Positions 14,729 through 41,300 of a DNA stretch of 64,000 nt are shown here, in pieces. Position 1 is the stretch's first letter. Every line of letters begins with the position of its first letter. The position numbers and the translations under genes were made by a program. Source of the DNA: Azolla caroliniana (Eukaryota; Plantae; Polypodiophyta); NCBI GenBank assembly GCA_043228905.1, contig JBHGNT010000002.1, forward strand, positions 18,848,001-18,912,000. Direction: 5' to 3'. The notes below the pieces were generated by a model that saw only the letters and a program-made list of their open reading frames with translations, was not told the origin of the DNA and did no database searches.

Positions 14729-15169
14729 TGTTGCCGATTAGGAACACGGTCCGCGGTCAGTCCTTCGGCCTAAACCTCCAAGTGGGTGTGGAACAACGAA
14801 TAGGCGTCTAAGCGTAATGCGTAGGGGAATCTTCCCTGTAACCTATCAGCGTATAAGGGAGACAGCTACAACCGAATCCTTAGCAAAGGTTACACTTTTG
14901 TTCTTACACGCTTAGGTTTTCAAGACACACACAGTGGATTAGTTGTAGCTATACACAGAGAATCAGAGAAGATAGAATTCTATTATGAGACGTTTCTTAC
15001 ATTCCCAAAATTACACGCTCCCTCTATCAGAGGTTTTCTGCCCTTTATATACGTAGGGTCTATTTAGCCGTTCACGCTTCCTGCGTGAACCGTTACATGC
15101 GTTATGATCTTATATTATTTCTTATTCCTACGCTCTTGTCCGTCAGTTACTATTCCGGAGGACAACACC

Positions 15170-15186
15170 TGGCACGCCGGTGGGAC
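15170..15186 (+). promoter_or_regulatory. Second, oppositely oriented tRNA-Arg-complementary site at the PPT position of B
   Basis: TGGCACGCCGGTGGGAC 2 nt from the left LTR. Confidence 0.7.
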
Positions 15187-15327
15187 AGTGCCCTGGCACG
15201 TCGGACAGATCCCTTTAATCCTCTTCCAAAATGGCCCGGATGTTTGGCTCTGTTGCGGTGTCCGCTCTCGCGTTGTTACGCATGTGCATGCAGAAAGAGG
15301 TGGGACCACGGGGGCCTTGAACCGAGG

Positions 15328-15398
<71 letters not shown>

Positions 15399-16055
15399 CA
15401 GATACGCGGAAGTGAGAAGGAGAGAGAACGAACGGTACCCTTAATTACAATAACAGTCAATTACAATATCAAGAGATTACAAACTCTGACGGTTACAACC
15501 GGCGAGCCGGCGATGGACCTGACACGGGGACCCTACTCACGCACATAGACGGAACACACTGGACCCAGAAAACATAGAAGGGAGAGCCTCTGCTGGCAAT
15601 GCATGGGCTACCCACGAAGCAGAGGCGTCGAACTCCCAGCACCCACAGAGAATGATGGTCCGAGGAGGAGAGAGAGCTCGACACTCGGTCCTGCAACACC
15701 TCGTCCTCGCTATCGCGCGATCCCTTTTCCATTCCTCTCCCTCTCTTTTATAGCCCAAGGAGGGAGGCCGTTATCATCCGTTACATCACATTAATTCTCT
15801 GTCCTTTCGGATAGAGATACACCTCGATTCTCTCCCTATTGAATGCGTGCTACCTAGGATTTCCTCTCAGCCGACTTGTACCTACCTACTTACCATACAA
15901 CGAAAAGTGTGCTCGCGTGTAAGGGCCGGTTTACACACGCTAAACTTGGTTTCCGCCTAGGAACGGTTTTCTTTACGACATCCACCCCCACCTAACTGCG
16001 CATCCACCGGTATGTGCCAAAATTAGGCTCTTGCTGGAGAAAACCGGTCCATGCT

Positions 16056-19000
16056 TTACTCCTCGTTTTCCGGATCGTCATCCGCTTTGGACCGCTCGTG
16101 GTCGCCGTCCATGCTTTCCAGATCCGGCTCGCACTCGTGTCGTTTCTTAAACGCTTTGACCCTCTTCCCCGCTACCAGTATTGCCATCCTCGTACCGTCG
16201 AGCTCCGCAAGATGGTAGGTCCCGTTGTCGTTGGCGCCTGTCATTGTGTAGGACCCGATCTTCTTTGGTCGCAACCGGTGTGTCCGGTTGAACCGGGTCT
16301 GGTTCCGCTCCCTTGCTGCCCGCAGCTTTTCCTTCGCCCTTTTCATGTCCTCCGGCCTCCGCTCGAGTTGCCGAATCCGCGCCGCCAGCAACTCCTCCCA
16401 ACTCATCTCGTCCTTCCAATCTACCGCCGCCCATGAAGAAACCGTCCATTCCACCGGCATGATCGGCTTCTGTCCGTACATCAGTTCTGCCGGCATAAAC
16501 CCTATCACCGAACTGTGCGTAGTTCGGTCCGCCCATAGTGCGTAAGGAGGGAGCCGCGGCCAATTCCCGACCTGCCCTCCGCATGCACGCACCAACGCCT
16601 TTACGATCGGCCTGTGCCCACGTTCTACCTTCCTGTTCGCCTCCGGATTGTACGCCGTAGTGAGGGAGAGTTTGACCCCTAGCCGGTCGAACAACTCCTC
16701 AGCTTCCCGCGCATCTAGCTCTCCCCGGTCTGCCACGATCCTCCTGACACACCCGTACCGACACACTACCTCTTCGATCAGGAACTGGCATACCGCCACG
16801 GTTGTCTTGTTCTGCAGTGCACGGCCTTCCACTTGGTTCGTTAAGTCTTCCCGCGCGAGCACCAGGTATCGCATTTGTCCTACTCCCATCGGCATCGTTA
16901 CCAAGTCCACCATCCACTTGAAATGGACCACAGGCGGGTAAGTCGGGTGTAGCTCGTCCCCATGTCGGACTACGAGTGCATCTAACAGCTTTCACAAGTC
17001 GTTACGAACCGATGCACATCCTGGTACAGCCCGGCCACGAGTACTTCTCCTTCAGCTTCTCGAACGTGGCCCACATTCTGCGGTGCCCGGCCCAGGGACT
17101 CTCATGAAATGCCGCTAGTAGTTCCTCCTGTTCATCTTTCCTTGCCACTACTCGGAGCGGGATTCCGTTTCTCTTCTTCGGGTGCCTCCATATGCACTTG
17201 TCCCGTAGGAAGAATCGATACGCCTTCTTCCGTACCCGGCTTGCCTCTTCTTTCGTCCATGCTGCGTCCGGCGTCATCGTCCGTAGGAACCTCCCGATTT
17301 GGAGCCACTCCCCGTCGTACCTGCTTTCGTCAAATTCGTTAAGCGCCGGAGTGTCCCTTTTCCCCGTCGTTACGTTAGCCGACCCGAAGAAGTCCTCGCC
17401 GACTTCTTCGTCATCCGAAACCATGCCGTCTTCGTCGTTGAAACTCGCTCTCGAAAGCATGTCGGCCATGGTGTTATCCTTTCCGGAGATGTGCCGTATC
17501 TCCGGGTTCAAGGACTTAATGTACGCGCTATCCACCGGAGCATTGCTAGGTCCGACGTCACGCATCCGGAAACCATGCCGAGTATCGGCAGGCAGTCCGT
17601 CTCGATGATCACCTCCGTCCCGATCAGATAGTCCTTGTCGGCCTTGACTGCCGAAACGATACCCCAAAGCTCGCGCTTAACTTGGGCGTATCCTTGCTGC
17701 CGCTCGCTCAATACCTTCACCCCGAACCGGATCGGGAATCGTACGCTGTCCTTGTCCTCCTGACTAATTACCCACCCGATCCCGGTCGGGCTCGTGTCCA
17801 CCGTCACGCAAATGGGGACACCCTTGTCGTAAACCTCTTTACGGAGGGCCGACGCTACTGTAAGCGCCTCCTTTAGTCTCCGAACCGACTCCGTGTGCTC
17901 CGTCCTCCACTCGAACCCACGCCCATTCTTCAATAGCCCGTAGAGAGGCTCCGCAACATGCGTGTAGTGCGGAATCCAGATGTGGTAGAACGCGCATGCT
18001 CCCAAGAATCTAAGGACCTCCATGACCGACCCGCAATTGTCCCTCATCGCGGAGATGGCCTCTATCTTTGCCGGAGACGGTTTCCTCCTATAGGGCCCGC
18101 ACAGGTGTCCGACCACCAAGATCTCCGACTGTCCGAACGCCGATTTTTCTCTGAAGAAGGTGAGTCGTGCGTTTTCGAGCCTCTGCAGCACCTTCTCGCA
18201 GTCGTTGATGTGGTTCACGAGAAACCTCCGGCATCCGTCTGGCCCGACAGTCTCGTTCGCGTCATCCACCGGACACCCCTTTATCGGGATGTCATCCAAG
18301 AATGGCATGGTGATGTCTGGGATGTAGTCCCTTAGCACTTTGTTCATTGCGTTCACCATATGCGCCACCGAATTTTTCCTGCCTTGTGGTAGGGTACACA
18401 TCCATACTAGGCTGAGAGGAGTTCACACCGTCGTGATATCCCTGCTTTCCACGGCTAGTTGGAACTGGTCGTACCCCGAGTATAAGTCACCAACCGAATA
18501 GATCGACCTTCCAGCGAAGGCCTCCATGAACTGTTCTATGGTCGGTCCGAATCCTGCGTTACGGATGGTCACCTTGTTGACCGGTTGCAGGTCCTGAATG
18601 AAGCGCAACGTGCCGTTCTTCGTTGGCACCGTAAACCACCGATTCGAATACGGGGCACTCGATGGTTCGAGGATGCCCATCTCTACCTTTTGCTTCAGAA
18701 GCTCCATCAACTTCGGGATGTGAGCTCTCGGCACCGGAATCAGTTTGAGACTCCACGGTACATGCGGTACCGTGAGGATCACCATCGGTTCGACGATCAT
18801 CGGGTCCATGCGCCCAATCTCCTCCGGCGAGAACGCGAAGGCTTCCCCATGCCTTCCGAGCATTCTCCGAAACCTGTTCTCCTCCGCCGGCAGTAAAAAG
18901 CCACCCCCACCAACCTTGAGCTCCCGTAGCGTTATGTCGGTGAACCGGTGCCCTATGCCAGCCGGATTCCGTAAACTTGGGTCCGACGTGACCCCTTTTA

Positions 19001-21229
19001 TCCGCTCCTCACTGCCCTTCGGCAAGGGTGCCGCGACCGGCCTTACCTTCTGGTCCACAGTCTTGTACTTTGCACTCACGCGGGCCATCCGATCCGACCC
19101 GATCCTTTCCCCGAAGTCCGCGATGACTTCCATTCCCATCGAACCTACCGGAACGGTCCGGTCTTCTCTAAGGTCTTCACCAATCACCTTTCGCAACTCG
19201 CCCAAGGTGTCGTCAAAAGAGACCGCCTCCACGGCTCCGCTGATCTCTTCGTCGGAGGAGAGGACTCCGCATCCCCTGAGCCGCTCCTTCGCTCGCTTCC
19301 TTTCCCGGCCGTTGATGCCGGCCATAGTACAACCTCCGTTGTCAGAGAACCAAAATTTCCTACTTATGGTGCAGGTCTTCTTCCGTACTGTACATTTGTG
19401 GGGTTTTTCCTGGGTGCCCGGACTATTGCGGCCCCACGCCTTGATAGCACTCTCTAAAAATCCCCTCGGGTTTCGCCACCGAGGGTCTCGCAATTACGCT
19501 CATGGTTTGGTCGCACTGTCAGGAACTGGACTGAGTGACACCTGTCCTGGCTCTTGACTCTTGCATAGGCCGAACCGTTGTCCAGCACCTTGGTCTCCAT
19601 CCGTGCCGCCGTGATGTATGGCTCTCCTAGTATAACCGGATGCGAGGACATCTCCTGCACGAAGAAGTGCTGGTCGATCTCGACATCGCCGATTTTCCCC
19701 CGTACGTTCGGACAGGCTCCATGTAGTTCTTCCATGGCATGCGTTGTTGCCCGTATTTTCCAGCCATGCTTGGTGTTGATCGGCCATTTACCCCTCTTGT
19801 AGAAATCCATGGACATCAGGTTGATTTCGGATCCATGGTCTACCAAGGCCACCACCGGTTCCGGAACGTCGCCGATCCGTATAGGGGTTTCTGTAGTTGC
19901 CCTGGCCAATTGCGGCTTCGTGTCGTGGCTTTCCGCCAACTCGTCTTCTAGGGCCGTGTCTTCCAAGTGCGTGGTCCGCACCTTGACCGGCTAATCCGGT
20001 TCCAGCTCCGTCGAGAGCCTCTTCCACTTCACCAAGTCTACGATGGAGTCGTGGAACTCCCTCTTGGCGATTCCCAAGACCTCCCGCAATGACAGCTCCA
20101 TTTTACTGTCGAGGATCCGCTCTTCAAGGACCTTCCGTAGGTCCGTTGCTCTCTCTATTTCGGTGCTCAACCGAAACCCCGCTTGCTTCTTCCAATCCGG
20201 CGTGCCTGGGTTGCCGGCACCGGTCGGTTTCGGTCTGGACCGGGTCTCGTACCTCTGCGGGGGACCGACCCCTCCGGCCTTTCCTGGCCGTTTGTCTTCC
20301 ACCAGAACCTCGTAGTTCTGGCAAGCGGCTTCTGTGAAGCCCGTTTTCTCTTCGACCGGATCGTCCCAACCGGTGACCTCCTGGACCCGCTGTTCCGTGC
20401 GGTCCACCTCTTCCTTCTTCAACCGAGCTCCGGAGAGGCCTTCTAACACTAGCGGCCAGAATCCGGAGTCCTTCGCCTTCCGGGTCTCATCACCCCCGAC
20501 CAGAATTCCCGTCGACATTGAGTAGTTAACGGCTTCAACGTGCCATGCCGCGACCTCTTCCATCAACCTCTTCATTTCGCCGTGCCCCGTATTTAGTTCT
20601 AGGGCTCTCCGGGTCTCACTTGCGTGCACCCGCCTATTCCAGAGGTACACCACATTGGTCCTGAGCGCGTCGGCGAAATCCGTGCAATCCTTCCGAATGT
20701 GACTGATCGCGTCACACCACATGCACCGTTGCCCAGCCGGCAGCCTCCGGTCGCGAGGTTATTCGCCGTTGTCTCTCCGGGCCTGTGCGATCTGCAGGTC
20801 GCGCACCATTTGTGTCAACTCCTCCAGAGCCGCTCCTCCGGATGGGCCTCTGACCACATCATTCGATGCCGACCCCGACTCTAGCCAGATTTAGGTCTCT
20901 TCCTTCCTACCGGCCGACACCGATACCGGATCCTCGAGCCTCCTCGCCGGGACCGACCCTGACTCCGACGAGCTTCCGTCGCTCCAATCGCGCCGTTTGT
21001 CGAAACAGCTGCAGACCCGTTTTACCACGGCCTAGTCTGCTATGAGCCCTTCGTCCGTTTCCAATATGGGACCCACTTTTTCCCTGTCGAGCGCGTCCAC
21101 CGACTTGACAAACAGTAGTACTCGACACATTTCGAGCACTATCCAGTCCAGCGTCGACAGCCGCGCGAACCGTTTTACCAGCCGGTTGACGGCTACTGCC
21201 ATTGCCTCTGCTAGCTCCGATTCCCTCAT
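16056..21229 (-). pseudogene. Element C gag-pol
   Basis: Protease LVDHGSEIN, RT FIQDLQPVNK/FLDD, RNase H VDTSPTGIG, integrase HESPWAGHR, VADRGE, YNPEANRKVERGH. Confidence 0.9.
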
Positions 21230-21900
21230 CTTTCGACTCCTTTGCCGCCCGTTTCACGTCGGGTTCACCAAATATGTCGCGTTGTTACGCGCGTGCGTGC
21301 AGAAAGAGGTGGGACCACGGGGGCCTTGAACCGAGGAGCGAGAGAGAGAGAGAGAGATTTGCAGATATGCGGAAGCGAGAAGGAGAGAGAACGAATGGTA
21401 CCCTTAATTACAATAACACTTGATCATAATATCACGAGATTACAAACTCTGACAGTTCCAACCGGCGAGCCGGTGATGGACCCGACACGGGGACCCTACT
21501 CACGCACACAGACGGAACACACTGGACCCAGAAAACGTAGAAGGGAGAGCCTCTGCTAGTAGTGCACGGGCTACCCACGAAGCAAAGGCGTCGAACTCCC
21601 AGCACCCACAGAGAATGACGGTCTGAGGAGGAGAGAGAGCTTGACACTTGGTCCTGCAACACCTCCTCGCTAACGCGCGATCCCTTTTGCATTCCTCTCC
21701 CTCTCTTTTATAGCCCAAGGAGGGAGGCCGTTATCATCCGTTACATCACATTAATTCTCTGTCCTTTCGGACAGAGAAACCCCTCGATTCTCTCCCTATT
21801 GAATGCGTGCTACCTAGGATTTCCTCTTAGCCGACTTGTACCTAACTACTTACCATACAACAAAAAGTGTGCTCGCGTGTAAGGGCCGGTTTACACACGC

Positions 21901-24900
21901 TGTCGTGAAGAATTTCGGCCATAGGCGAAAACCGGGAAACATTGGCTACATCAGCGGGGTGCAACGTGTGTACGCACCCATGTACATTTAGTGTGAATAT
22001 CGAGGGCGCCTGGGTGCAACGTGTGTACGCACCCATGTACATTTAGTGTGAATATTGAGGGCGCCTTTATGGCGCCGAAGAGTAGTCAAGTCGGGATAGA
22101 CGATCCCATGTAAGTTGGGATTTGTCCCGCATTGTAATGCTTCCCTTCCGTCCCGACTTGACTACTCTTCGGCGCCATAAAGGCGCCCTCGATATTCACA
22201 CTAAATGTACATGGGTGCGTACACACGTTGCACCCCGCTGATGTAGCCAATGTTTCCCGGTTTTCGCCTATGGCCGAAATTCTTCACGACATCCGCCCCC
22301 ACCTAACTGCACATCCACCGGTATGTGCCAAGTCCGGTTGAAGGGTGAGAGATTTCGGCCGGTGAGAAACCGGTCTTCCGTGATCCGCATCTCGGCTCGC
22401 TGCCGGTTTGATCCGTCGGCTTCGAGTCTTCCTTCGCGCTCGCCTCCCCGTAGGCTCGTTCGACCCGTTGATGGGTCCTCTGTCGCGATCTCCGTAGTAC
22501 GCGTTCTTCCGTTGGCCCTTGTTCGGCCGTATGAACGCCCCGCTTCCCCCGTATGCCCGATGTCCTCCGCTTGAGGAATGCTCGTGGCAGCCCGCTTGGC
22601 CTCTGTTGTCGAATCGTGATGTCCGGATGGTGTTTCGCGTCGCCTTCGTCCTTCCGCCGCCACCTTCCTTCTCCATGGTCTTAAATCGCCGCGTCGGCTC
22701 GAACCGCCATGGTCTCCGGAACAGTGCGGAGGATCCCTTTCGGGCCTTCTCCGCGCTCGCCTTTCCGCTCCGGCACCTCCGTGTGCCACATAACCTCGTC
22801 CGTTGTTTGGCACTGCCCGTGTTGCACTCCTTGTCGGCCCCCTTTCCGGCCAGATCGTGCATCGCTGCTCACCCGCTTACCGGTGTCCTCTGCATCTGAG
22901 GAACACCCCGTAGTAGCCCGCTTGGCCCTTCCCGTCTTCATGCTGCTGCAACAGGTCCTGAGTCTTCTGCTTGCTATCGTCCCCTCGCCCCCACCAGCTT
23001 GTCACCCCGGCTTGCCGTGTCAGTCTTCATTACTTCGACGGAGCTACCGAGATCTACGAAGCGAGTAGGAGGATCCTTCACACCGGTTCTAGAGACTTCG
23101 GCAGTCGGCAACGTGGTCGACGTAAGACCAAGATAGTGACGGTGGCGGCGAGGTGACGAAGGCAAGGGCTACGGAAGGTCAGTCGACGGAGGATCCTTCA
23201 CACCGGTTCTAGAGACTTCGGCAGTCGGCAATGCGGTCGACGTAAGACCAAGATACTGATGGTGGCGGCGAGGTGACGAAGACAATGGGCATAAGGAAGT
23301 CCGGTCCTACGGGATCCCCACACCTGATCCGGAGACTCCGGCAGTTCCGCCAACATGGCAACGTGAGACCGAGGGAGAAGGATGGTGGCGGCGGGAAACG
23401 GGACCCGGCTACGCGGAAGACATGAGGAGAGTCTGGGAGGGACCTAAGCAAAAGACACCCGAATTTCGGCAAGCATAGAAACGGAGTCCGGTCCTATGGG
23501 ACCCTCACACTGATCCGGAGACTCCGGCAGTTCGGCCAACGTGGCAACGTGAGACCGAGGGAGAAGGACGGTGGCGGCAGGGAACGGGATCCGACGACAC
23601 GAGGTTCGGAAGGAGCCGGTAGGGGCAAACACGGGGAGGTGTGTCAGGCCGGAAACGCACACCTAGAACAGAACAAGAGTCTCGCAAATGGCCATCGCGG
23701 GCCGGATCGAAGCGTGACTACGGGACGGTGTTCGGCGCGGGTGGGGCCGAACGAAGGAAGCGGAAGACGGCACAAGGGAGGTGCCGAGAACGAAGTGACA
23801 AGTGCCTAGTGGACTGCACAGGGTCGGAATCCGGATGGCAAGAGAGGCCGGAGGAGGATTCTCCACACTCGCTTCGTAGATCTCGGTAGCTCCGTCGAAG
23901 TAACGAAGATTGACACGGCAAGCCGGGGTGACAAGCTGGTGGGGGCGAGGGGACGACGGCAAGCGGAAGACTCATGACCTATTGCAGCAGCACGAAGACG
24001 GGAAGGGCCAAGCGGGCTACTACGGGGTGTTCCTCAGATGTAGAGGACACCGGTATGCGGGTGAGCAGCGATGCACGATCTGGCCGGAAAGGGAGCCGAC
24101 AAGGAGTGCAATACGGGCAATGCCAAACAACGGACGAGGGTATGTGGCACACGGAGGTGCCAGAGCGAAAAGGCGAGCGCGGAGAAGGCCGGAAAGGGAT
24201 CCTCCACACCGTTCCGGAGACCATGGCGGTTCGAGCCGACGCGGCGATGTAAGACCATGGAGAAGGAAGGTGGCGGCGGAAGGACGAAGGCGACGCAAAA
24301 CACCATCGGGACATCACGATTCGACAACGGAGGCCAAGCGGGCTGCCACAAGCATTCCTCAAGCGGAGGACATCGGGCATATGGCGGGAAGCGGGGCGTT
24401 CATACGACCGAACAAGGGCCAACGGAAGAACGCGTACTACGGAGATCGCGGCAGAGGACCCATCGACGGGTCGAACGAGCCTACGGGGAGGCGAGCGCGA
24501 AGGAAGACTCGAAGCCGACGGATCAAACCGGCAGCGAGCCAAGATGCGGATCACGGAAGACCGGTTTCTCACCGGCGGAAATCTCTCACCCTTTAACCGG
24601 ACTTGGCACATACCGGTGGATGTGCAGTTCGGTGGGGGCGGATATCGTGAAGAATTTTGGCCATAGGCGAAAACCGGGAAACATTGGCTACATCGGCGGG
24701 GTGCAGCGCGTGTACGTACCCATGTACATTTAGTGTGAATATCGAGGGCGCCTTTATGGTGCCGAGGAGTAGTCAAGTCGGGACAAACGATCCCATGTAA
24801 GTCGGGATTTGTCCCGCATTGTAATGCCTCCCTTTCCTTGTTCTATAAAAGGAAGGGAACGCCCTTTGTCAAGGGGTTGCCCATTTTGCAATAGAGGGTA

Positions 24901-25406
24901 TACCGTTAGGTTTAGAGTTAGGTTCTTTCTTCTTCTTCCTCTTCGTGTTCACTTAGGGTTTGCTGCAGCTTATCTCCTGTGCAAGACCCCGCTCGGCGCG
25001 ACGAGCCCGAGAGCTCCCCGACGGCGGCTTGGCAGCAGACGACTACTGTAACCTACCTCAGCCCAGCTCGAAGCCGGGAATGTATTCTTCTGTTTATACA
25101 TATAGATATGTTTGCGTCTGTTTGTGTATATTCGCGTCTCTGTTGGTGTCGGGTGCTTCCCCTTTCCTGCGTTTCATGTACATAAGGGCGTGAGTTAGGT
25201 CTGCATGTGTGTGTGTGTGCGTGTGTGTGCGTGAGTCGGTGTTAAGCACGCGCTCCCTCTCTTTCTCTCTCTCCCTTCGGTTGCTTCCGGCGTGTTTCTG
25301 GGATGCCTCGGTAACGGTGAAGCACGACTTCCTACACTCAATCACTCCCTAGTCCAAGACCCCCGTGGTCCCGCCTTTCTCCACGCACGCGCATAACAAC
25401 GCGACA
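21901..25406 (+). mobile_element. Element D: non-autonomous LTR element related to C, inserted antisense in the C 5' LTR, with internal inverted duplication
   Basis: Partial 5' LTR 21901-~22149, PPT 24631-24642, full 3' LTR 24643-25406; LTR end and pre-PPT sequence resemble C; no pol motifs. Confidence 0.85.
22150..24784. repeat. Long inverted repeat, arms 22150-23066 and 23867-24784, ~800-bp spacer with diverged ~118-bp tandem units
   Basis: Near-identical ORF translations on opposite strands (22284-22862 minus vs 24071-24733 plus). Confidence 0.92.
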
Positions 25407-27196: not shown

Positions 27197-27227
<31 letters not shown>

Positions 27228-27397
27228 CTACTCACTTTTCTCTCTCTTAAAATGAGCAACAACATAAACTGTTTGCCCTAAGTCATATTTATACACATAT
27301 GACTTTCGGGCTATTTACAAATATAGCCTCAAGGGCTCTTAGCAAACATATTCACAAATATGTCCCCGCATCCGGATCTCTCTCCGGGTACATCCGT

Positions 27398-27537: not shown

Positions 27538-27593
27538 CATCCGACATCCGACCATCCCATCCGAAGGGACCGTAATCCCAACAAACTCCCCCT

Positions 27594-30260: not shown

Positions 30261-30536
30261 TGCTAGTTCCTGTAGTAAAACAGTGCTCGGCCACAACCGA
30301 GGAATAGGATCAACTTTCAGAAAACAGGAAATACAAAATGCACGAAGTACAATAGAGAGAAGAGTACACGGGATGTTTTACGTGGAAAACCCTAACGGGG
30401 GAAAAACCACGGGAGTCCTCAAACTCCAACTATCACTATAGACAGAGATGTACAATGGTGAAGCTACAAGGCAACAACCTTGAGCTCACTGTCTTCGCCA
30501 CAGGCGGCGGCAGTACACAGAGGCAACGACCTCTTC

Positions 30537-30567
<31 letters not shown>

Positions 30568-31874
30568 CTACTCACTTTTCTCTCTCTCAAAATGAGCAAC
30601 AACATAAACTGTTTGCCCTAAGTCATATTTATACACATATGACTTTCGGGCTATTTACAAATATAGCCTCAAGGGCTCTTAGCAAACATATTCACAAATA
30701 TGTCCCCGCATCCGGATCTCTCTCCGGGTACATCCGTCATCCGGCTCCGTAACCGGGGTCTTCAGCATCTGGCTCCGTAACCGGGGTCTTCGTCATCCGG
30801 CTCCGTAACCGGGGTCTTCAGCATCCGGCTCCGTAACCGGGGTCTTCATCATCCGGCTCCGTAACCGGGGTCTTCATCATCCGACATCCGACCATCCCAT
30901 CCGAAGGGACCGTAATCCCAACAGTTCCCGATGGACTTCGACTAGGGCCGTGTTTAATCAGGGTATCTCCATCCCCACTTGGCGTACCCCGGCGTTCCTC
31001 TGTCTGCCGACCCTGGCTAACCGGTCCTCATCGTCGCTTTCCGTTGTTTGTGTTAGGGCACGCTCAATCATCTGGCGTTCCGTATGCTCTTTGGCCATTC
31101 ATTGGGCGGCTTTTACCTGTTGTATTGCCAGGAACTCCATGAGCTCAAAAGAAGTGCCGAACTGTAAGAGGGCGTTGAACTCATGGGCCGTATCCAGGAT
31201 ATCCGGATATGCCAAAACCTCACTTTCCGCCGTCAATACGGCTTTCCCTCATTTGGGACTGGGTCGTAATGATCGGTCATGGCTCCTCAATGATTTCGAA
31301 GGTGGTATTGGGTTCCGTAGCTGCGGAGCCATCGCCTTCGGTCGGTGTTTCTGTCACCGTGGGTACGTTTTTGACCAACCCCCGCCCATCTTTCTTGTCC
31401 AATCTACGTCGTTTCGGTTTGGGGCTATCCTGCCGTGTTTCAGTGTCTTGCTCTGGGGCTGCTTCCATGGAACGTGCCGGCTGTTCCTCCTGCGTTGTCC
31501 TTGTATCTGGCTGGTCGGTAGGTGGTGTTGTCCTTGGGTCAAGTTGGGCGGGTTGGGGTTCCTCTTCCCACTCTAGGGCCGATAACTCCGCTAACCTGTA
31601 CTTCGCAGATTGGGGCGGGGGCGTGGGCTGGCTGGGTTGCGGTGCCGGCAGGCCTCAGGGTGGAAATAGTACCGTAAGGTACTGTTGTATGATCGGCCTG
31701 AGCTTTTTTCCTACCTGGTACGCATGCAGGCCTTCCCTTAACGCCGGCCCCGTGATGACCCCCAATCGACCGCGTGCCCCTCAAAGGTATCGATAATGAT
31801 GCCTGCCTTCTGCTTAGGCATCCCATATGCGTTGACATGGACGCAACTGACTTCTAGCAGGAACTTCGCAACTT

Positions 31875-34835
31875 TGTTATAGGTTTTAGGGTTAGGGTCA
31901 AGGATGATAATCATGATAAAGATAGACATGGTGGTCATGATGAGGATGATGAAGAGCATGATGATGAGAGATCGTATAGAGAAGCATAGAGAAGCATTGC
32001 GGGGTGGGGGGTGGTGCCTAGAATGGCTCCACCCCCCTCCCAAGGGGATTCAACGTTGAGGGGGAGAGAGAGAGAGAAAGAGGGATGACAAGAGAGAGAT
32101 TAGGAGAGAAATGGTTCATTCTTCATTCATTCCCCATAAGGGGTTAAATAGTACAAGAGGGGGTAGTTACAAAGGGGTGTAAGCCCCATAGAGCATTCAT
32201 ACTGGACACTCACTCACACCTCATCGTATCCCTCCACATGCACACACGTGTGCATGTGTTCACATACATATCAACTCACAATTACATTTATGTTCCCTAC
32301 ACATATACAACATCATCATGATAATATTCGACCCTCGCTCATCACACTTGACTCTCCGTACAACTCGTACAGGGTAACACATATGGCACGCCCGTGGGAA
32401 AGTGCGTTGCACGTCGATCCCACATGCCTTGATGATGATATTTCTTCGACCGGAACTTCCATCGGTCCTTTCAACGATCGACTCCCTCGATCGGAATGCT
32501 TGACTCGAACATCTTTGTCGGTCAACAAATTGTCCGCGACACAACATTCTCGTTTTGTCGGCTTACGAACTTCGTCATGGGTCCAAAATCATGTCGTATG
32601 TATGTGTGTTCTTCCTTTGTTTTGAGTGTGTGTGAGTAGTCTTGGGGATTTTCAAAATTCTAGTGGTGCCCTCTTATTTTTTAAAATTTTGATATGTACC
32701 CTTGAGGTTTCACAATTTCATTCAGCACCCTCAAGGTTTCAATATTTGTTACATGCCCCCCCCTTTTTTTTCTTCTTTTTCTCTCTGTTTTCAATTTTAT
32801 TCTAGGTTTTTCTCTTTATTTCTTCTTCTTGCTCTTGTATCTCTGTCTCTCTCGTGCTCACGTCTGTCTCTGTATGCCTTTCTCTTCTTCGATTTTCTTC
32901 TTTCTCTTCTTTTTCTCTCTTTCTTCTTCTTTTCTGTCTTTCTTCTCCGTCTCTCCATGTCTTCCATGACTTCTTCCATTTTTCCTCTCTTTCTTTCTCT
33001 TCTTCTCTGTTTGTGCTGCTCCATCCTTTCTTCTCCTTCATTCTTTTTTCTTCCTTTTGCACTATTTCTCCTCGTTCTATGCCTGTTTTTGCTTCCTCTC
33101 CTTCTGAAGCTCCATAGTATCCATCCCTCGGCGCCAGTCGCCGTCTGTCTCTGCCTCTGCAACCGTCTCTATGCGGCCACTGTCCGGCGTCATCGTCTTT
33201 ATTAGCCCTATCCGGCCTATCTCTATTCCGGCCGTCGATCCGGCCGCTGTTCACCCTTCTATTCGTCCAATGTCTCTATCCAGCCCTTTCGGTTGCCTCT
33301 CCGTCACTTTGGCCATCTCCTAGCTGTTGTTGTCCGTTGTCCGGCCGTTGTTTGGTCGTTATCGTCAGACATCTTCGTCGTCCTGCCGGCTCTGTCTGAC
33401 TCCCGCCACCATTTCCGACCGTTGCTGTTTGGCCGTCTCTGTTTTCCGTCGTCCTCCGACACCGTCTGTCTTCCTGGCGGCCTGTCTGCTTCCCCGGCCT
33501 TGTCTGGTCCTCCGGCCGCTCCGGCCGCTCCAGCCACTGTCTGGCTATTCCGACTGGTTTCCGGCCCTTCCGGCAGCTTTTTCTGCCGTCTGGCCCGTCG
33601 TTTCATTGTCATTCGGCGTCTCGTCTGCTGTTCGACCTAGGGTTTGCTCATGGCTTTTGGGGTCTCTGGCCCTTTCCGTCTCTGTCCGGCTGTATCTCCG
33701 ACAGAAACCGTTTTCATCTCTCGTTGTCTTCGTCTGGCGCCCTGAGCCTTTTGTCCGTCAATGTTGTTGTCGAGTCACCCTCGTTGGTCCTGCTGTCTTT
33801 GCATGTGTGTGTTTGTTGTGATGTCCCTTTTTCTGGTTGTCGATGTTTGGTCCACGTCTGCATCTTCTTCTCTGTCTTCGATGCCCCTTCGGTGATAACC
33901 AACTTTGGTTCTTGTTCCGATTCCGGTTCCACTCTCTTTGCGTTGTTTCTTCTGGAACCATAGCCCATGCATTCGCAGCACATCCTGCCGGCCTCCGCTC
34001 CACACACTGCGTCTTCCACCGCAGTCTTCAGGTGGGCTTCTCTTACCGGTCGTGCTGGCACCGGTTCCCTCTGCGTCGCTGTTTTTCCAGCCGTGCATCT
34101 TGCACCACGCATTCGAACACGCACATTGTCACTAACCGCATTCGGAAACACGTACATGAACACCAATCGCAACCTTGCACAAACATCGTTTCCATTCATG
34201 AATTCTTTCATCGCATTGTCATTTCCTGCACTCACACAAATATGTCGCTATGGCCTTCGCTACTTCATCACCGCGTATCATTCTTTGACTCCGTTTCCAA
34301 AGGGGGGTCGCCGTAGTGGTCGCCAAAAGGTGTTATAGGTTTTAGGGTTAGGGTCAAGGATGATAATCATGATAAAGATAGACATGGTGGTCATGATGAG
34401 GATGATGAAGAGCATGATGATGAGAGATCGTATAGAGAAGCATAGAGAAGCATTGCGGGGTGGGGGGTGGTGCCTAGAATGGCTCCACCCCCCTCCCAAG
34501 GGGATTCAACGTTGAGGGGGAGAGAGAGAGAGAAAGAGGGATGACAAGAGAGAGATTAGGAGAGAAATGGTTCATTCTTCATTCATTCCCCATAAGGGGT
34601 TAAATAGTACAAGAGGGGGTAGTTACAAAGGGGTGTAAGCCCCATAGAGCATTCATACTGGACACTCACTCACACCTCATCGTATCCCTCCACATGCACA
34701 CACGTGTGCATGTGTTCACATACATATCAACTCACAATTACATTTATGTTCCCTACACATATACAACATCATCATGATAATATTCGACCCTCGCTCATCA
34801 CACTTGACTCTCCGTACAACTCGTACGGGGTAACA
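31875..34835 (-). mobile_element. Element G: non-autonomous LTR retroelement (2961 bp); LTRs 31875-32379 and 34331-34835; TSD AACTT
   Basis: 505-bp near-identical LTRs (1 difference seen); low-complexity non-coding interior; strand inferred from TATA-like tatttaa and CT tract; element certain, orientation less so. Confidence 0.9.
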
Positions 34836-35464
34836 AACTTCATAGAAGAAGGGATCCAGAATCTGCTTGGTTCTATAGGCCTTGGCGGAGGAGGAATATG
34901 GCCCGAAATATCGTTGCAGCGCCTCTGCAGGAGGGATGTCGAAATGCCTTTCGCCTAGCGATGACAGGTCCAACTTCTTCTGGATGGAGGAGTTGGTGAC
35001 CGTGTCGATGTTTAGCTTCGTGGCGATGTCCATGGCATCCGGGTGTGGGGGTGCTTCTGCAACCCGGATGTACCCATCCAGGCATTTCTCCACGAGCCAT
35101 CAGCGTAAGGCAGTAGAGATGAAGATCGTCATCGCCAGAGGAGGTTCGTGGGAAGGAGACTGGTGGTTGCGGCGGGTTGTAGCTATGTGATAGGATGGAG
35201 GAGAAGGTGAGGGGGAGGAGCGATGGAAGCGCTGATAGCTAGAAGATGAGTTTCTGTTTTGTGCAGGAAATCTTCTGTTTCCTTCTTTTTGTGGCTTAGG
35301 GTTCATTGGGTGGTGAGCCATCGTGGTGCCGCATGTTCTTGAACTAGGTGTTTGTGTATGTCTTTAGTCGTTTTAATAGTCGCTATCTTCTCCGTTTTTT
35401 TTTTTTTTTTTCATAACGGTTATCTACAACCTATTTTTACATTATGGTACAAGTGGGGCAGGTC

Positions 35465-38400
35465 ACTTACGGTACGGGTTCTCCGGCTCTGTCTTGTTCG
35501 ACGGTGAATGGGTTAGGTGGCATAGGGCCCAGGTAAGGTTTGAGCTGAAACCCATTCACCTTTTGCCAGACTACTTCCCCGACCAACGTACCTAGTTGGA
35601 ACGTGCCTTGTTCCGCTCCAATTATCCATTATAGGCCGGTCCAACGGAATCGTAACTTCCCCAGCATATGGCCCATGCAAGTTTGGAAAACCAGCACTGC
35701 TGGACCCACGGAGAACTCCTTTTCCCTTGCGTTCCGATGTCGATCCACAAACGCTTTACACCGTTGTTGTTCCTATTCCAAAATAGCCATGCTGTGGACA
35801 CATTTTTCCCCTAGTTCAAGGAGTTGGTGGAGTCCGACTTGGCTTCTGATAGTCGGTTCCGTACCTAAATTCGCAAACTAGGTACCTGAAATTCGACCGG
35901 CATCACAGCCTCAAGTCCAAACGCTAGTCGAAATGGTGTTGACTGTATGCTTGTTTTGTAGCTGGTTCTGTACGCCCATAACGCACTCTGTAGTTTGGTA
36001 TCCTAGTCCGTTCTATTTTCATTGGCGATTTTCTTCAAAATGGTCTGCAACGTCTTGTTGGTGGATTCTGCTAATCCATTTGCCTGGGGATAATATGGCG
36101 TACTCTTCTTATGGACTACGGCATAATGATGTGTTAATTCTCGAACAACCGTATTGAGAAAGTGGCTCCCCTGGTCATTGATAAGCTCAATCGGACACCC
36201 GAACCGGCACCAGATGTGCTAGTAAAGAAATCTGGCTGTGACGGCCGCCGTATTTTCACGTAGTGCCTTTGCTTCTACCCATTTTGTGCAATAATTTGTG
36301 GCTACCAATATGTATTTATTGCTAGTATGGGCTGCCGCCGGTGTGAAGGGCCCCACAAAATCCAATCCCCAATTTTGGAAGGGGTCTAGCGGTAATACGG
36401 GCTGGTGTGGCATCCTTGCGCCCTCTGCGGGTTGTCCCATCCGTTGACACAGATCACACTTTCTACAATACGCGGATGCGTCCTTCTGCGTTGTTGGCCA
36501 CCATAGGCCCGCCTGCCATACTTTCTGGGCTGTAACGTCGCCCACGTAATGGCCGCCTGCCGTGCCGCAGTGTGCCTCCCGTAAAACAGCTTCCTTCTCA
36601 TCCTGCCGTACCCCACGTCGCCAAATGCCGTCACTTCCTTTGTGATATAAAATGCCTTCGACGAGGCAGAAGTGACGGCTTCGGGCGGCTAGTCGTTTCT
36701 TCTCGTCCGTGTGTAATTGTGGTGGAGGCAGTCCCGTAGTCAAAAAGTACGTCATTTCCAAAAGCCACCGGTGCGGAAAGATCGATTCCATTCTTTTTGC
36801 TAGTGTCGCTACCCGTAGGATATCGGCGTCCGGAAAATCGTCGTCATCTTTTTGTATTGTTTCTCCATTCTCGAGTCTACTCAAAAAATCCGCCATTGCG
36901 TGTTGCGTCCTTGGTCGGTGTTGGATTACAAAATAGAATTCCTGGAGCAGCAACATCCACCGCGCCAATTTCCCTGTCAGGGCTTGTTTCTCCACCAAAT
37001 ACAGTAGCTTCGAATGATCCACGTGGAACGTGAATTTCCTTCCTAATAAATAGTGCCGGAATTTATTGATGCTATAGATCATCCCTAGCGCCTCCCGCTC
37101 CGTTGTGGAGTAGTTACGCTCTGCTGTTGATAATTTGCGACTAGCGTAGTATACTGGCTGATACTAGCTTGGTTCAGTGAGCTACATTAGTGCACTTCCT
37201 ATTGCTATGTCCGAGGCATCGACGAACATGTGGAATGGCTTCGCCCAAACTGGTGGTTGTACGACGGGAGCCTGTGTGAGCATTATCTTAAGTGCCTCGT
37301 AGGCCTTATCCTCCGTTGCAGTCCATTGGAAAGGAGTCCGATGTACGGCAGCGTGTAATGGTGTGGCGAAGTCCGCCAAATACCGTATCATCCGACTATG
37401 CCACCGTATTTGTCCCAAAAACTGGCTGAGTGATTTGGCGGTTGTCTGAGTGTTGGCTTGCGTAATCGCGGAGATTTTGTTCGGGTCAACAATTGTTCCC
37501 TCCTTGCTGACTATATGGCCCAGGAGAGTCCCGCTGGTCACGCCGAAAGCACATTTCGCGGGATTCAGGCTTAAGCGTGCCGTGCGGCCACGTTCCAGGC
37601 ACAGTTGTAAGTATGAAAAATGGTCTATTGTTCTCCCATATACCGCAAAGTCGTCTAAAAAAACTTGCATGAACACCAGAATGTATTCCCCAAAGATCTC
37701 CGTAATTGTCGGCGCCGTCTTTAGCCTGAACATCATGACGACTGCCACATATACTCCCCACTCTGTGACAAATGCCGTCTTTTCTTGGTCCTCAGGATGC
37801 ATGCGTACCTGGTTATAGCCACTGAAGCCATCTAAAAAATTGTACATCTCATGTCCTACGACGGCGTCTAGTACGCTATCGGTGAAGGGTAAGGGAAATG
37901 CGTCCGTAATGGTGACGACGTTTAATTTTCGGTAATCTACGCATACCCGTATTTTGTCGTTTTTCTTTGGAATGACCACTATCGGGCTTAACCATGTCGC
38001 TTGTTTAACTGGTCGTATGAACCCCGCCTTCAGGAGCTTGTCAATTTCTTCTTTCACGCGGGTCGTGTAGTTCGGGATCATGCGGTAGCGGCGCTGCTGG
38101 ACGGGTTTCGCGTCGGTTGCTAAATTGATCTTATGCTGATAGAACTTGGGATCTAACCCCTTCATGTCCTTGTGAGCCCAAGTGAACACATCCTTATATT
38201 CCGTGAGTAGTGCGATCATCGTGTTTCGCTGGTCCGGCCTTAATTCCTTTGCGATGGAGAGGAAACGAGGCTTCGATTCCATACCCATATTTACTTCTTC
38301 GAGGGCGGAAGCAGTGATTCGTTGTGAAATCTCCATTTCCCTTTCGAATGTCACCCGTGCTCTGCTGAGTTCCAATATGGACTCTGGGTTTGGTTCGTAA

Positions 38401-40800
38401 GGCTTGTTGTGGAGAATAGTGGTCGTGGCATATTCTGCCGCAGTTGCGATGACATCTATTTCAAACAGCGGAATAATCTGAGGTTGCTCGTCAAGGTATG
38501 CCTCTAATTCTGCATCCTCCACCCCAGCCAACATATTTATATCTTCTACGTATAATGGTGTTATACCCTTCGGTTGTGGCGTGCTTCCTTCCGTAGGTAC
38601 GCGAACCTTGGTGCGTCCGTGTCGGAAATTAATACACTTGTGTTGCCAGCTCTACTTGATATTTGCTACCCGAAGCCATGGTCTGCCCAGAAGCACTAGG
38701 TACGCCCCTGGGGCGTCCAAGGCAAGGACGACCACCGAGATGTCGAATCGGTGTCTGCCCACGATAATGCCTATTTTGCGAATTAACCCTAATGGTCGTA
38801 CTGAGCGGGTATCTGCCATTCGGAGCCAGAATGGGCAAGCCTCCCATTCTGAAATGCCTAACTACTCGCAAATTTTTGCGCTAATTACATTGACGCCTGA
38901 GCCGTCGTCGATTATGCATCTAGGAATTTCTTGTCTGTGTAATATTAATGTAATAGCCAGGTTGTGTTGATCCACTACCGGCGGTCCACTACAAAAGTTT
39001 GTAAGGTTTGTAGCGATACTCACCCCAGGTATGCCTGTCACCCATTCTTCCATGGTCTGTCGGAAGCGTGGGACTAGCTGCAGCAGTTTCTCCATGGTTA
39101 ACGTTATCTCACAGCCCGCTAACACCTGCCAAATGGGGTCTGGGACCGGTCTTTCGTCCTCTGCTCTCTCCATTGTGTTCGCGGACTCCTTCCACATACG
39201 TTCCGTATTTGTCGCGTTTGCTTTTTCCACCCATGCTTGGGCTTGTCGGCGTACCTCGTCTTGCGCAACCCAATCAACCGTTTTTGTTTGCTGGCGTGTC
39301 GTGACTTGCTGCACTTCCGCCATAATCATATTGACAGCGGGCCCCTTTCCCTTGCGTGCTGGGCATTGCGTGGCATGATGTCCGGGTTGCTGACAAATAA
39401 AACAATGGATGCTTGATTCACCCTTCTCGGCTCCTGGTGGTGTGTGCCGCTCCCCTGGTGCTACTTGCTCCTCGCGGTCCGGCCTCGTTTGTCGGAACGT
39501 ACGCGGTGGCTGTTGTTGGTCCCGTCGTTGTTCCTGGTGCCGCTCATCCCCGAGATTTCATCGTAATGCCGGTGATCTCGATATTGCCGTGGCTTACCAC
39601 GATAACCATTGAAGCCGCCCCGTTTGTTTGTCGGTCGTTGATTCTCGTAGCGCCGACCCCCTTTGGCGTAACTCAGATGTCCACGATAATCCTCGTCCTC
39701 TGGTTCGTCCTCCTAGGAAAAATTGTGATTTTGGCGATTCCGGTGGTACCGGTCCTCCCGTGGGTTGCGATCCTTATACCGGGGTCGGTCTTCTTGCCTC
39801 CCTTGTTCAGTCCGGTGTGGTTGATGTTGTGTGTCCATGCTGCGGACTGCGGGAGGGGCTCTGTTTAACATATTGTATTCGCATTGGTCGACTGTGTGAG
39901 CCTTCGAGTGGCAGATTGGGTAGTGGATTTGCATATTGCAGTCCACTACGGAATGCCCCGAGTTCAAGCAAATCGTGCACTGGATTGCTTGACGAAAGTA
40001 GCGTTCCTCATCCTGAGGTAACGCTTGTCGTAAGGAGGACATAGAAAACTTTTCCTTCTCATCATCCAACTCGAGCTATAATGCTCGTTCAATTACCATA
40101 TCCGTTGTTTCCCCTTTCACGATATTGTTGTTGAGCGTTGCCCGGATGGGCCGGTGTAAAGCTGCCAGAAATGTTTCCCGAGCCTCATCCTCCGCGGGGC
40201 TCTGTTCCAGTTTCCGTCATAAATTTTGGAAACGTAAGCTGAAGTCCGCTATCGTCTCGGTTGGCAGTTGCTTAATCATATAAAACTGTCTGAGGATTTC
40301 GCGTTGAGGAACCCTCCGATGGAAGAATCTCAAGAAAGCGGATTATAGCTGATCGAAGGTTGTTATTGCTGGTAAATCCATCTATGAATGCCAAAACGTT
40401 GCTCGCCCATCTAATATTAACCCGAACTCCGTCATTTTCAATTGGTGTGCTACCGCCTCCGAAAGTCTATGCACCATGTGGTTCGCATTCCAAACATTTA
40501 GGAACATGCGAATATGCGTTGCGGCGTCGGTTTCGTCGTTAAAGCAGGGGTAGGCAAAGGCCATGGTGGGGGTTACGGAGGGTCAGGAAAGACCACCGGG
40601 TGGCTGTGGTGAGCGTAGTCCCCGCGTCTCATCGAGGTATTTGGAGAACGAAGAATCACCTTTGTACTCACGGCAGGTAGTACTGAGGTTGCTGAGGTGC
40701 GGCTTTTGCCGTGCGCGTTCTTCTGTCTGGCGTGTGATGGACCTTGTTATTGGCCGGTCTTGTCGTGTTGGTTCTCTGGTGCGTCAGTGGCTAAACATCC
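35465..40800 (-). pseudogene. Element B gag-pol (broken by stops and frameshifts; ends approximate)
   Basis: CTICLNSGH knuckle, IIDDGSGVN protease, CVDYRKLN/FLDDF RT, VDASDIAIG RNase [18 protein letters not shown] integrase. Confidence 0.9.
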
Positions 40801-40834
40801 ATTCGTCGTTGTTCGTCTGTGAGAAGACACAGAT

Positions 40835-40848
40835 CACCAAGCGTGCCA
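40835..40848 (-). promoter_or_regulatory. PBS of element B (tRNA-Arg-like)
   Basis: Minus strand TGGCACGCTTGGTG, 4 nt after the 5' LTR. Confidence 0.7.
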
Positions 40849-41300
40849 AAAGTGTTGCCAATTAGGAACACGGTCCGCGGTCAGTCCTTCGACCTAGACC
40901 TCCAAGTGGGTGTGGAACAACGAATAGGCGTCTAAGCGTAATGCGTAGGGGAATCTTCCCTGTAACCTATCAGCGTATAAGGGAGATGGCTACAACCGAA
41001 TCCTTAGCAAAGGTTACACTTTTGTTCTTACACGCTTAGGTCTTCAAGACACACACAGTGGATTAGTTGTAGCTATACACAGAGAATCAGAGAAGATAGA
41101 ATTCTATTATGAGACGTTTCTTACATTCCTTCCCAAAATTACACGCTCCCTCTATCAGAGGTTTTCTGCCCTTTATATACGTAGGGTCTATTTAGCCGTT
41201 CACGCTTCCTGCGTGAACCGTTACATGAGTTATGATCTTATATTATTTCTTATTCCTACGCTCTTGTCCGTCGGTTACTATTCCGGCGGACAACAGCTGG

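What the first reader, a model, noticed from the sequence alone, without database searches (positions are those of the whole stretch)
14729..41295. Gypsy element B has inward-facing tRNA primer sites at both LTRs and no adjacent PPT: candidate tRNA-primed second-strand synthesis
Seen: gag-pol and the LTR TATA are on the minus strand, and the 5' LTR is followed by a PBS-like TGGCACGCTTGGTG (40848-40835). Where the polypurine tract should abut the 3' LTR, the sense strand reads GTCCCACCGGCGTGCCA-gg-TG, which looks like a tRNA 3' end including CCA (15170-15186). Known: LTR elements prime the minus strand from a tRNA at the PBS and the plus strand from a PPT next to the 3' LTR; TGGCACGCC..GTGGGAC resembles Arg-type PBSs of Tat/Ogre elements (from recall). 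Inference: first-strand cDNA would present a second PBS, so a tRNA could replace the PPT primer. Alternatively the 3' tRNA mimic pairs with the 5' PBS for circularisation or self-priming. The clean GCTGG TSD and TG..CA ends suggest the element integrated in this form. Caveat: a purine-rich GGAAGAGGATTAAAGGGA lies ~45 nt from the LTR.
Basis: partly seen in the sequence, partly recalled or inferred. Interest (0 to 1): 0.85.

Follow-up and report, generated by a model that had tools for sequence, protein, structure and literature searches.

The report
Retrotransposons replace PPT with tRNA site
Many related plant jumping-gene families lack the purine tract that normally starts their second DNA strand and carry at that spot a conserved 40-base mirror image of an arginine tRNA's 3' half, so a second host tRNA likely primes that strand, a route not found in the papers searched.

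Summary
Observation confirmed and wider than reported. Element B (LTRs 14729-15167 and 40853-41295, TSD GCTGG, gag-pol on minus) has no polypurine tract (PPT). Two bases inside its 3' LTR lies a ~41-nt module that, on first-strand cDNA, complements a tRNA-Arg 3' end (17 of 18 nt). A 13-nt hairpin follows, then the complement of the T-loop and T-stem. A second element in the window (F, unrelated LTR) carries it too. So do 105 of 121 metagenome loci, in 13 LTR groups with no mutual similarity, always at the PPT position where orientation could be read. B's upstream purine run is not conserved. In 6 of 12 elements the 5' PBS is of another type and pairs only 5 bp with the module, so circularisation or self-priming is not required. 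Best reading: a second tRNA primes the plus strand (about 0.55). Main rival: the element's own tRNA-like RNA piece primes it (about 0.25). Untested: the host's tRNA, priming itself, and spread beyond one or a few host species. The scan noted this anatomy before on other pieces of this genome.

The parts
14724..14728 (+). Target-site duplication GCTGG (left)
14729..15167 (-). 3' LTR of element B (439 nt; TATATAAA at 15051-15044 on minus)
15168..15169 (+). 2-nt spacer between LTR end and module; inferred overhang removed by integrase
   Evidence: 68 of 93 related junctions have a 2-nt spacer and 88 of 93 begin with C
15170..15186 (+). Module, part 1: complement of tRNA-Arg positions 76-59 with one base missing (second primer site on first-strand cDNA)
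15187..15200 (+). Module, part 2: inserted hairpin GTGC-loop-GCAC, placed between the bases facing tRNA positions 59 and 58
   Evidence: 97% of cells paired, 22 sequences; no two-sided change
15201..15210 (+). Module, part 3: complement of tRNA T-loop and 5' T-stem strand (6 of 10 in this copy, mean 8.2 of 10 in 28 representatives)
   Evidence: most copies differ from this one at 15207-15208
15210..15227 (-). Purine-rich run 43 nt from the LTR; not a conserved PPT
   Evidence: 15214 differs in 77-92% of depth in 4 runs; no fixed distance in other families
15266..25450 (-). Nested Ty3 element C with ordinary PBS and ordinary PPT (internal control); itself carries an inverted insertion
25451..35200 (-). 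Extra 3' ORF of B in sense orientation, in three broken pieces (about 34836-35200, 30924-31874, 25452-26920), split by nested D and F
   Evidence: an open 1109-aa homologue in L016 without Pfam hit
26931..30923 (-). Nested truncated Ty1/copia element D (TSD GTTCC, ordinary PPT)
31875..34835 (-). Nested short element F, no pol found; LTRs 31875-32379 and 34331-34835 (1 mismatch), TSD AACTT; same two-site anatomy as B with an unrelated LTR
32384..32423 (+). Module of element F (4-nt spacer to LTR)
34316..34325 (-). 5' PBS of element F, TGGCGACCAC, a different tRNA end from the module
35450..40600 (-). gag-pol of B (gag with zinc knuckle, protease, RT, RNase H, integrase); broken by stops and frameshifts; no aRH found
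40835..40848 (-). 5' PBS of B, TGGCACGCTTGGTG, after a 4-nt spacer
   Evidence: the same junction is the loose-end consensus in runs X2 and X6
40853..41295 (-). 5' LTR of element B
41296..41300 (+). Target-site duplication GCTGG (right)

Best explanation
B belongs to a group of Ty3/gypsy families that have no PPT and carry, at the PPT position, a conserved module complementary on the first-strand cDNA to a tRNA-Arg 3' half, and a second host tRNA likely anneals there and primes the plus strand. Shown: the anatomy, its position, and its conservation across unrelated LTRs. Inferred steps: (1) A sense RNA from the LTR promoter is primed by a tRNA at the short 5' PBS (10-14 nt). (2) After strand transfer and RNase H removal of the RNA, the cDNA module is predicted to fold as a hairpin that leaves its first 9-10 nt free. 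(3) The tRNA's CCA end would bind this toehold and then swap T-stem strands with the module, giving up to ~27 bp, with tRNA base 66 bulged and the inserted hairpin opposite position 58. (4) RT would extend from the tRNA's 3' A through the 2-nt spacer into the LTR. (5) RNase H would remove the tRNA and integrase would trim the spacer after CA, as at the other end.
For: No PPT: 8-9 purines in the 15 nt next to the LTR in 28 of 28 representatives, against 11-12 for C, D and H in the window. Module in B and F, whose LTRs share nothing else, and in 105 of 121 metagenome loci; 87 LTR ends fall into 13 groups with no BLAST similarity. Position: in 21 of 21 loci with integrase-end or extra-ORF hits downstream of the module, these point at it from the other strand. 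TATA-like boxes lie on the pol-sense strand in 16 of 24 LTR clusters. tRNA identity: 15 of 15 natural tRNAs with this 3' half are tRNA-Arg (bacterial and phage proxies). The T-arm part, which the search pattern did not fix, scores 8.2 of 10 against 4.3 in downstream controls. A proxy tRNA pairs with the cDNA module at -43 to -50 kcal/mol (RNA parameters). The spacer is 2 nt in 68 of 93 and starts with C in 88 of 93, as at 20 of 22 5' junctions, which fits a primer ending at CCA and an integrase-trimmed end. The 5' PBS switches as a 10-nt block while the module stays (L065 against L022 and F). The position facing tRNA base 58 is the least conserved of part 3 (19 of 28), though only just (two others are at 20 of 28).
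Against: No biochemical or cDNA-end data. The host tRNA gene was not available, so the match rests on proxies. A tRNA annealed to DNA is an RNase H substrate, and how it would survive to prime is unexplained. The first 16 nt and one hairpin arm were fixed by my search pattern, so their conservation in the metagenome set is selected, and no two-sided covariation was seen. A family with an ordinary PPT could not have been found by that search. All 105 loci come from one series of assemblies, so breadth across species is not shown. Position 10 agrees between the 5' PBS and the module in several families (C with C, T with T), which fits two tRNA variants but equally fits pairing between the two sites. 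Phage tRNAs whose ends match B's 5' PBS were Trp in 11 of 12 loci, so that site's tRNA type is unsettled.
Confidence: 0.55

Rival explanations
1. The element's own RNA is the primer. The sense copy of the module folds like a tRNA T-arm with a tail ending in CCA; RNase H spares it and cuts after CCA, and this piece primes the plus strand like a PPT.
For: Same position and 2-nt spacing. The sense RNA folds at -11 to -20 kcal/mol, more strongly than the cDNA strand at -6 to -7.5. RNase H catalytic motifs are present in B. Ty3 RNase H reads local helix geometry rather than purines alone (PMC5371799 passages). It needs no second tRNA in the particle.
Against: It does not require near-identity to a real tRNA-Arg over 27 nt in 13 unrelated LTR groups. 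The mimic lacks a 5' acceptor strand, misses one acceptor base and varies at the T-loop A58 position. Seven one-sided changes keep G-T pairs on the cDNA strand against three that would suit the RNA strand, though this count is biased by the fixed pattern.
Confidence: 0.25
2. The module is a bridge, not a primer site. In the RNA it pairs with the 5' PBS, or with the freed 5' strands of the first-strand tRNA, to bring the RNA ends together. The plus strand starts from some other RNA fragment.
For: The 5' PBS and module pair 9-10 bp in 4 of 12 elements, B included. Position 10 agrees between the ends in several families. Sense module and proxy tRNA can pair at -28 to -36 kcal/mol. Precedents: Ty3's split PBS (PMC5371799 passages) and a tRNA-like sequence in HIV-1 U3-R (title only, in the reference list of PMC6468702).
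Against: In 6 of 12 elements, including L044 with gag, integrase and extra ORF, the sites pair only 5 bp. It leaves the missing PPT, the terminal CCA and the fixed spacing unexplained. Self-priming by the mimic would need a cut that severs the 3' LTR from the RNA.
Confidence: 0.12
3. The packaged RNA is the antisense strand, so the module is the true first-strand PBS and the short site at the other end starts the second strand.
For: The module is longer and more conserved than the 5' site. TATA-like boxes occur on the module strand in 6 of 24 clusters.
Against: TATA-like boxes lie on the pol-sense strand in 16 of 24 clusters, 117-252 nt from the module-side end. In none of 105 loci does a gag hit follow the module on its strand. 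There is no PPT in this orientation either, so a non-PPT primer is still needed.
Confidence: 0.04
4. A one-off accident: an inverted PBS duplication, debris of the nested insertion C, or an assembly error in one dead copy.
For: B is broken by stops and frameshifts, and C inserted about 100 nt from the LTR.
Against: Contigs in 4 of 4 runs bridge LTR and module. F has it with near-identical LTRs. It is present in 105 loci and 13 LTR groups. It contains T-arm sequence that the 5' PBS lacks.
Confidence: 0.02

Closest known systems
Ty3 of Saccharomyces cerevisiae (Ty3/gypsy, Metaviridae); PMC5371799, passages read
   Same: Domain order gag-PR-RT-RH-IN; best solved-structure relative of B's RT (4ol8, E 6e-47); short 5' PBS; tRNA T-arm engaged by element sequence.
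   Different: Ty3 primes the plus strand from a 12-nt PPT just upstream of U3, and its 3' PBS segment is complementary to tRNA on the RNA, inside U3. Here there is no PPT, and the 3' module lies outside the LTR, is tRNA-identical on the RNA and ends in CCA.
Plant non-chromovirus Ty3/gypsy: Athila, Tat/Ogre/Retand, Phygy, Selgy (Neumann et al. 2019, PMC6317226; passages, section 13, supplement rows)
   Same: No chromodomain hit, non-Met tRNA PBS, 5-bp TSD and an extra 3' ORF as in the OTA group.
   Different: No aRH (unlike Tat); PBS not Asp/Asn/Ala (unlike most Athila); TSD not 4 bp (unlike Phygy, Selgy). The RT groups with fern and liverwort proteins, apart from the seed-plant and aRH proteins. 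The parts of the paper I read examine primer sites only after the 5' LTR.
Known non-standard primers: self-priming Tf1/Tcn1/TAR and half-tRNA priming of copia, Osser, Bianca (PMC6317226 section 13; PMC5371799)
   Same: Departures from the textbook primer scheme exist among LTR elements.
   Different: All concern the first strand; in the passages read the second strand is always PPT-primed.
tRNA3Lys-like sequence in HIV-1 U3-R that promotes minus-strand transfer (Piekna-Przybylska et al. 2010; title only, seen in the reference list of PMC6468702)
   Same: A tRNA-related sequence near the 3' end of an LTR element.
   Different: HIV-1 keeps its PPT, and by its title that sequence lies inside U3-R and aids strand transfer rather than priming.

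Membership tests
Ty3/gypsy LTR retrotransposon | Two direct LTRs with TG..CA ends and a TSD | tested here: met
   430 matches, 9 mismatches; TSD GCTGG
Ty3/gypsy LTR retrotransposon | Order gag-PR-RT-RH-IN with RVT_1-type RT | tested here: met
Ty3/gypsy LTR retrotransposon | PBS after the 5' LTR | tested here: met
   TGG-initiated site 4 nt from the LTR, family-wide; host tRNA partner not identified
Ty3/gypsy LTR retrotransposon | PPT before the 3' LTR (usual: 'most' elements in PMC6317226) | tested here: not met
   8 of 15 purines; same in 28 of 28 representatives
Chromovirus | Chromodomain after integrase; RT in the chromovirus clade | tested here: not met
   RT far from the window's host element A; no Pfam hit in the integrase tail of relative L016; B's own broken tail was not scanned
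Tat (TatI-III, Ogre, Retand) | Additional aRH domain | tested here: not met
   aRH segments of P0068 and P0099 align nowhere in 34836-40852; no RVT_3 hit in the B ORFs scanned
Athila | 5-bp TSD, no aRH, extra 3' ORF | tested here: met
Athila | PBS mostly tRNA-Asp/Asn/Ala and RT within the Athila clade | tested here: inconclusive
   PBS resembles Arg or Trp ends; the tree held no named Athila reference, and B lies outside the Vitis/aRH clade
Phygy / Selgy | 4-bp TSD, no extra ORF, PBS Trp or Ala (supplement rows) | tested here: not met
   5-bp TSD and extra ORF in B
Dual-tRNA-primed element (proposed) | Host tRNA complementary to the 3' module | tested here: inconclusive
   15 of 15 proxy tRNAs are Arg, all bacterial or phage; no host genome held
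Dual-tRNA-primed element (proposed) | Plus-strand DNA begins with a tRNA | not testable with these tools
   needs cDNA-end mapping or in vitro priming

The most novel reading that the evidence does not exclude
An abundant and recently active lineage of plant Ty3/gypsy elements has dropped the polypurine tract altogether and primes both DNA strands with host tRNAs. The second tRNA binds a purpose-built 27-bp, three-way-junction site on the cDNA, which breaks the rule that LTR elements and retroviruses start their plus strand from a PPT.
Probability: 0.5. Interest if true: 0.92.

Novelty: new variant of a known kind. Interest (0 to 1): 0.8.

Why it matters
PPT priming of the plus strand is described as general for retroviruses and LTR retrotransposons in the reviews read (PMC5371799, PMC12789967); the known exceptions concern the first strand. 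A successful lineage with no PPT shows that this step can be rewired. Either leading explanation (a second tRNA, or a tRNA-like RNA piece) would be an undescribed primer type as far as ten searches show. It raises a testable question about how RNase H spares a tRNA:DNA hybrid. It would double the element's exposure to tRNA supply and 3' tRNA fragments (inference). It also warns that annotation tools which expect a PPT, or take the best PBS match as the 5' end, could miss or mis-orient these elements (inference).

Tried and rejected
No genome of the window was held, so copies could not be counted in the assembly. Viral contigs: no relative of the RT and no module. Rfam found nothing at 15100-15300; ARAGORN found no tRNA gene in the window; the plasmid search gave only chance matches. 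The 8-mer TGGCACGC with 1 mismatch is at chance level (36 against 33.6); only the long motif and its position are informative. No RNA holder was listed. Sixteen of 121 metagenome loci were dropped before counts because they lacked the N-AGTGC spacing and any LTR-like end; they look like chance bacterial matches. Some candidate 5' sites (L002, L021, L072, L112, L064, L097) were set aside as probably inside LTRs or at insertion flanks. Hits that do not fit a simple single element: L002 and L072 (coding hits upstream on the module strand), L049 and L067 (RT hits 4.1 and 1.9 kb downstream on the module strand), probably neighbours, not resolved. The displaced-PPT idea was rejected: best purine-rich 15-mers lie 45-185 nt from the LTR with no shared distance. 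Covariation could not be tested fairly because the pattern fixed the 5' arms; one search had a misplaced helix, corrected. No module for another tRNA type was found in the window or loci. The careful tree did not finish; the quick tree was used. Sequence strings of the primer sites gave no relevant paper and no hit in the 5 supplement files held for PMC6317226; its per-element PBS table may not be among them.
Full report
Observation. Element B has LTRs at 14729-15167 and 40853-41295 (430 matches, 9 mismatches, one 4-nt gap), TG..CA ends and a GCTGG duplication. It sits inside the reading frame of an older Ty3 element. Gag, protease, RT, RNase H and integrase are on the minus strand and broken by stops and frameshifts. 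Three elements are nested in its 3' part: C (Ty3, 15266-25450), D (truncated copia, 26931-30923) and F (31875-34835). C, D and the neighbouring copia H have ordinary purine tracts against their 3' LTRs (11-12 purines of 15); B has 8 of 15.

A second example in the same window. F has near-identical LTRs (1 mismatch), TSD AACTT and no LTR similarity to B, yet it shares 34 nt with B directly inside its 3' LTR (29 of 34). The pattern TGGCACGCCNGTGGGA matches perfectly only at 15170 and 32384. F's 5' PBS is TGGCGACCAC, a different end from the shared module.

Family level. Logan contigs of four runs (two organism labels and a leaf metagenome) were laid on B's left end: 2347, 2140, 2795 and 486 contigs. 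Contigs in all four runs bridge the LTR and the module. Loose ends before the LTR in X2 and X6 reproduce B's 5' PBS junction. At 15179 most depth reads T (79, 50, 82, 69%). The purine run 43 nt from the LTR is interrupted at 15214 in 77-92% of depth. On F's end, depth over the module is two to seven times that of the adjacent LTR bin, with loose ends on both sides, so other families share the module. Contig depth is not a copy number.

Many families. A metagenome scan for the motif plus GTGC returned 121 loci; it stopped at 43 of 64 parts. Of these, 105 have the exact module spacing and 16 were dropped as chance matches. All 105 come from one series of assemblies, so they may represent one or a few host species. 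Their LTR ends (87 usable, B and F included) form 30 clusters at 80% identity and 13 groups with no BLAST similarity. Of 99 loci with enough flank, 93 show an AACA end. The spacer is 2 nt in 68, 4 nt in 11 and 5 nt in 14, and begins with C in 88 (ends inferred from the motif, anchored by TSDs only in B and F). In 21 of 21 loci with integrase-end or extra-ORF hits downstream, these point at the module from the other strand, and in none of 105 does gag follow the module on its strand (four loci with other hits are listed under Tried and rejected). TATA-like boxes lie on the pol-sense strand in 16 of 24 clusters and on the module strand in 6; B's own box was missed by that expression. None of 28 representatives has a PPT at the LTR or at a shared distance. 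The search could only find module-bearing ends, so it does not show that every member of the clade lacks a PPT.

What the module is. On the cDNA strand it has three parts: 17 nt complementary to tRNA positions 76-59 with one base missing, a 13-14-nt hairpin, and 10 nt complementary to positions 58-49 (tRNA numbering from my own knowledge). All 15 natural tRNAs found with this 3' half are tRNA-Arg (13 TCG, 2 TCT; bacterial and phage); the host's tRNA was not available. The third part was not in the search pattern. It matches 8.2 of 10 on average, and 7 or more in 26 of 28, against 4.3 and 1.5% in 476 downstream windows. The two helices are 94% paired in 22 sequences, with no two-sided change, because one arm of each was fixed by the pattern. 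With a proxy tRNA and RNA energy parameters, the cDNA module pairs at -43 to -50 kcal/mol and the sense RNA at -28 to -36. On its own the cDNA strand folds at -6 to -7.5, leaving the first 9-10 nt free in 6 of 8 cases. The hairpin sits where RT normally stalls on a tRNA (m1A58, own knowledge), which suggests that the module arose by RT copying a tRNA, slipping and resuming (inference).

The 5' site. Twenty-two distinct 5' junctions were catalogued with a motif-limited expression: 11 begin TGGCACGC, 4 TGGCACACC, 5 TGGCGACCA, 2 others; 20 spacers begin with C. In near-identical LTR contexts the first 10 nt are swapped as a block (L065 against L022 and F) while the module stays. Phage tRNAs with the second end are Arg in 29 of 41; those matching B's own PBS are Trp in 11 of 12 loci, so its tRNA type is open. 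Pairing between 5' PBS and module is 9-10 bp in 4 elements, 6 in 2 and 5 in 6, the last including L044, which has gag, integrase and extra ORF. Against this, position 10 agrees between the two ends in several families, which fits either two tRNA variants or pairing in cis.

Mechanism. The plus strand must start near the LTR edge and there is no PPT. What lies there ends in CCA two bases out and keeps complementarity to a real tRNA over about 27 nt in unrelated families. The simplest reading is that a second tRNA-Arg anneals to the first-strand cDNA and primes (0.55). The main rival is that the element's own tRNA-like RNA piece is released by RNase H and primes (0.25). A bridging role (0.12), an antisense genome (0.04) and an accident (0.02) fit less well. 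The weak point of the best reading is that a tRNA:DNA hybrid should be cut by RNase H; the bulge and hairpin may protect it, which is untested.

Lineage. The closest RT relatives are unnamed metagenome proteins (57-78%), then Adiantum (50-51%) and Riccia (44-46%). In a quick tree of 59 rows, B lies in a 7-row clade (99) next to two Adiantum proteins (90), within a 25-row clade with Riccia (97), apart from the Vitis and aRH-bearing proteins. The tree held no named Athila, Phygy or Selgy reference. B lacks aRH, has a 5-bp TSD and carries a long sense 3' ORF, open for 1109 aa in L016, with no Pfam hit. It is a non-chromovirus Ty3/gypsy, likely of a non-seed plant, that fits none of the REXdb lineages on all features.

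Literature. Ten full-text searches found no description of a tRNA-primed plus strand or a PPT-less plant lineage; the library lacks most subscription papers. Read: PMC6317226 (passages, section 13, supplement rows), PMC5371799 (passages), PMC12789967 (passages), PMC11963269 (one passage), PMC6468702 (passages and reference list). The Ty3 review notes that Ty3's PBS is not regenerated from tRNA, so the stable missing base in the module says little about priming order. Earlier notes of this scan report the same anatomy on other pieces of this genome, and similar single copies in two fungal genomes; they are unreviewed and not counted as support.

Verdict. The feature is real, conserved and lineage-wide within the sampled host or hosts. 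It is a new variant of a known kind of element with a probably undescribed second-strand primer. Interest 0.8.

Noticed in passing
window 15266-25450: Element C has Phygy-like traits: a PBS that I recall as tRNA-Trp type, an apparent 4-bp TSD (CCGC/CCAC), a DUF4100 hit and a normal PPT. Its left terminal TG reads TC.
   Followed up: partly
window 21902-25408: An inverted piece of a related LTR element sits inside C's right LTR, with 521- and 399-nt inverted arms and a 46-nt duplication; no clean TSD seen.
   Followed up: no
window 26931-30923: Copia D has two near-identical LTRs and a TSD but lacks gag and PBS; its internal region ends in the same 10 nt (TGCTAGTTCC) that precede the left LTR in the target, suggesting a post-insertion duplication. 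Its full-length relative H lies at 45322-50638.
   Followed up: partly
L016 68-3397 (minus); window 25452-26920, 30924-31874, 34836-35200: A 1109-aa extra 3' ORF with long charged, coiled-coil-like stretches and no Pfam match is shared across the module-bearing families.
   Followed up: partly
L008, L020, L030, L054: A short (about 2.3-2.5 kb) family is symmetric at its two inner ends: AACA, a 2-nt spacer, then the same 10 nt; a compact substrate for testing.
   Followed up: partly
window 1-5349 and 43700-44400: Degenerate copia-type fragments in opposite orientations (about 67-70% identity).
   Followed up: no
window 51300-62400: Several AT-rich tandem arrays with periods of about 51-52, 62, 120 and 147 nt.
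   Followed up: no
window 9699-10173: A long near-perfect inverted repeat (156-nt arms, 24-nt loop), possibly a MITE or hairpin RNA.
   Followed up: no
L050 1062-1137 and 2756-2828: Two tRNA-Lys-like genes in a contig that ends in a module-bearing LTR.
   Followed up: no
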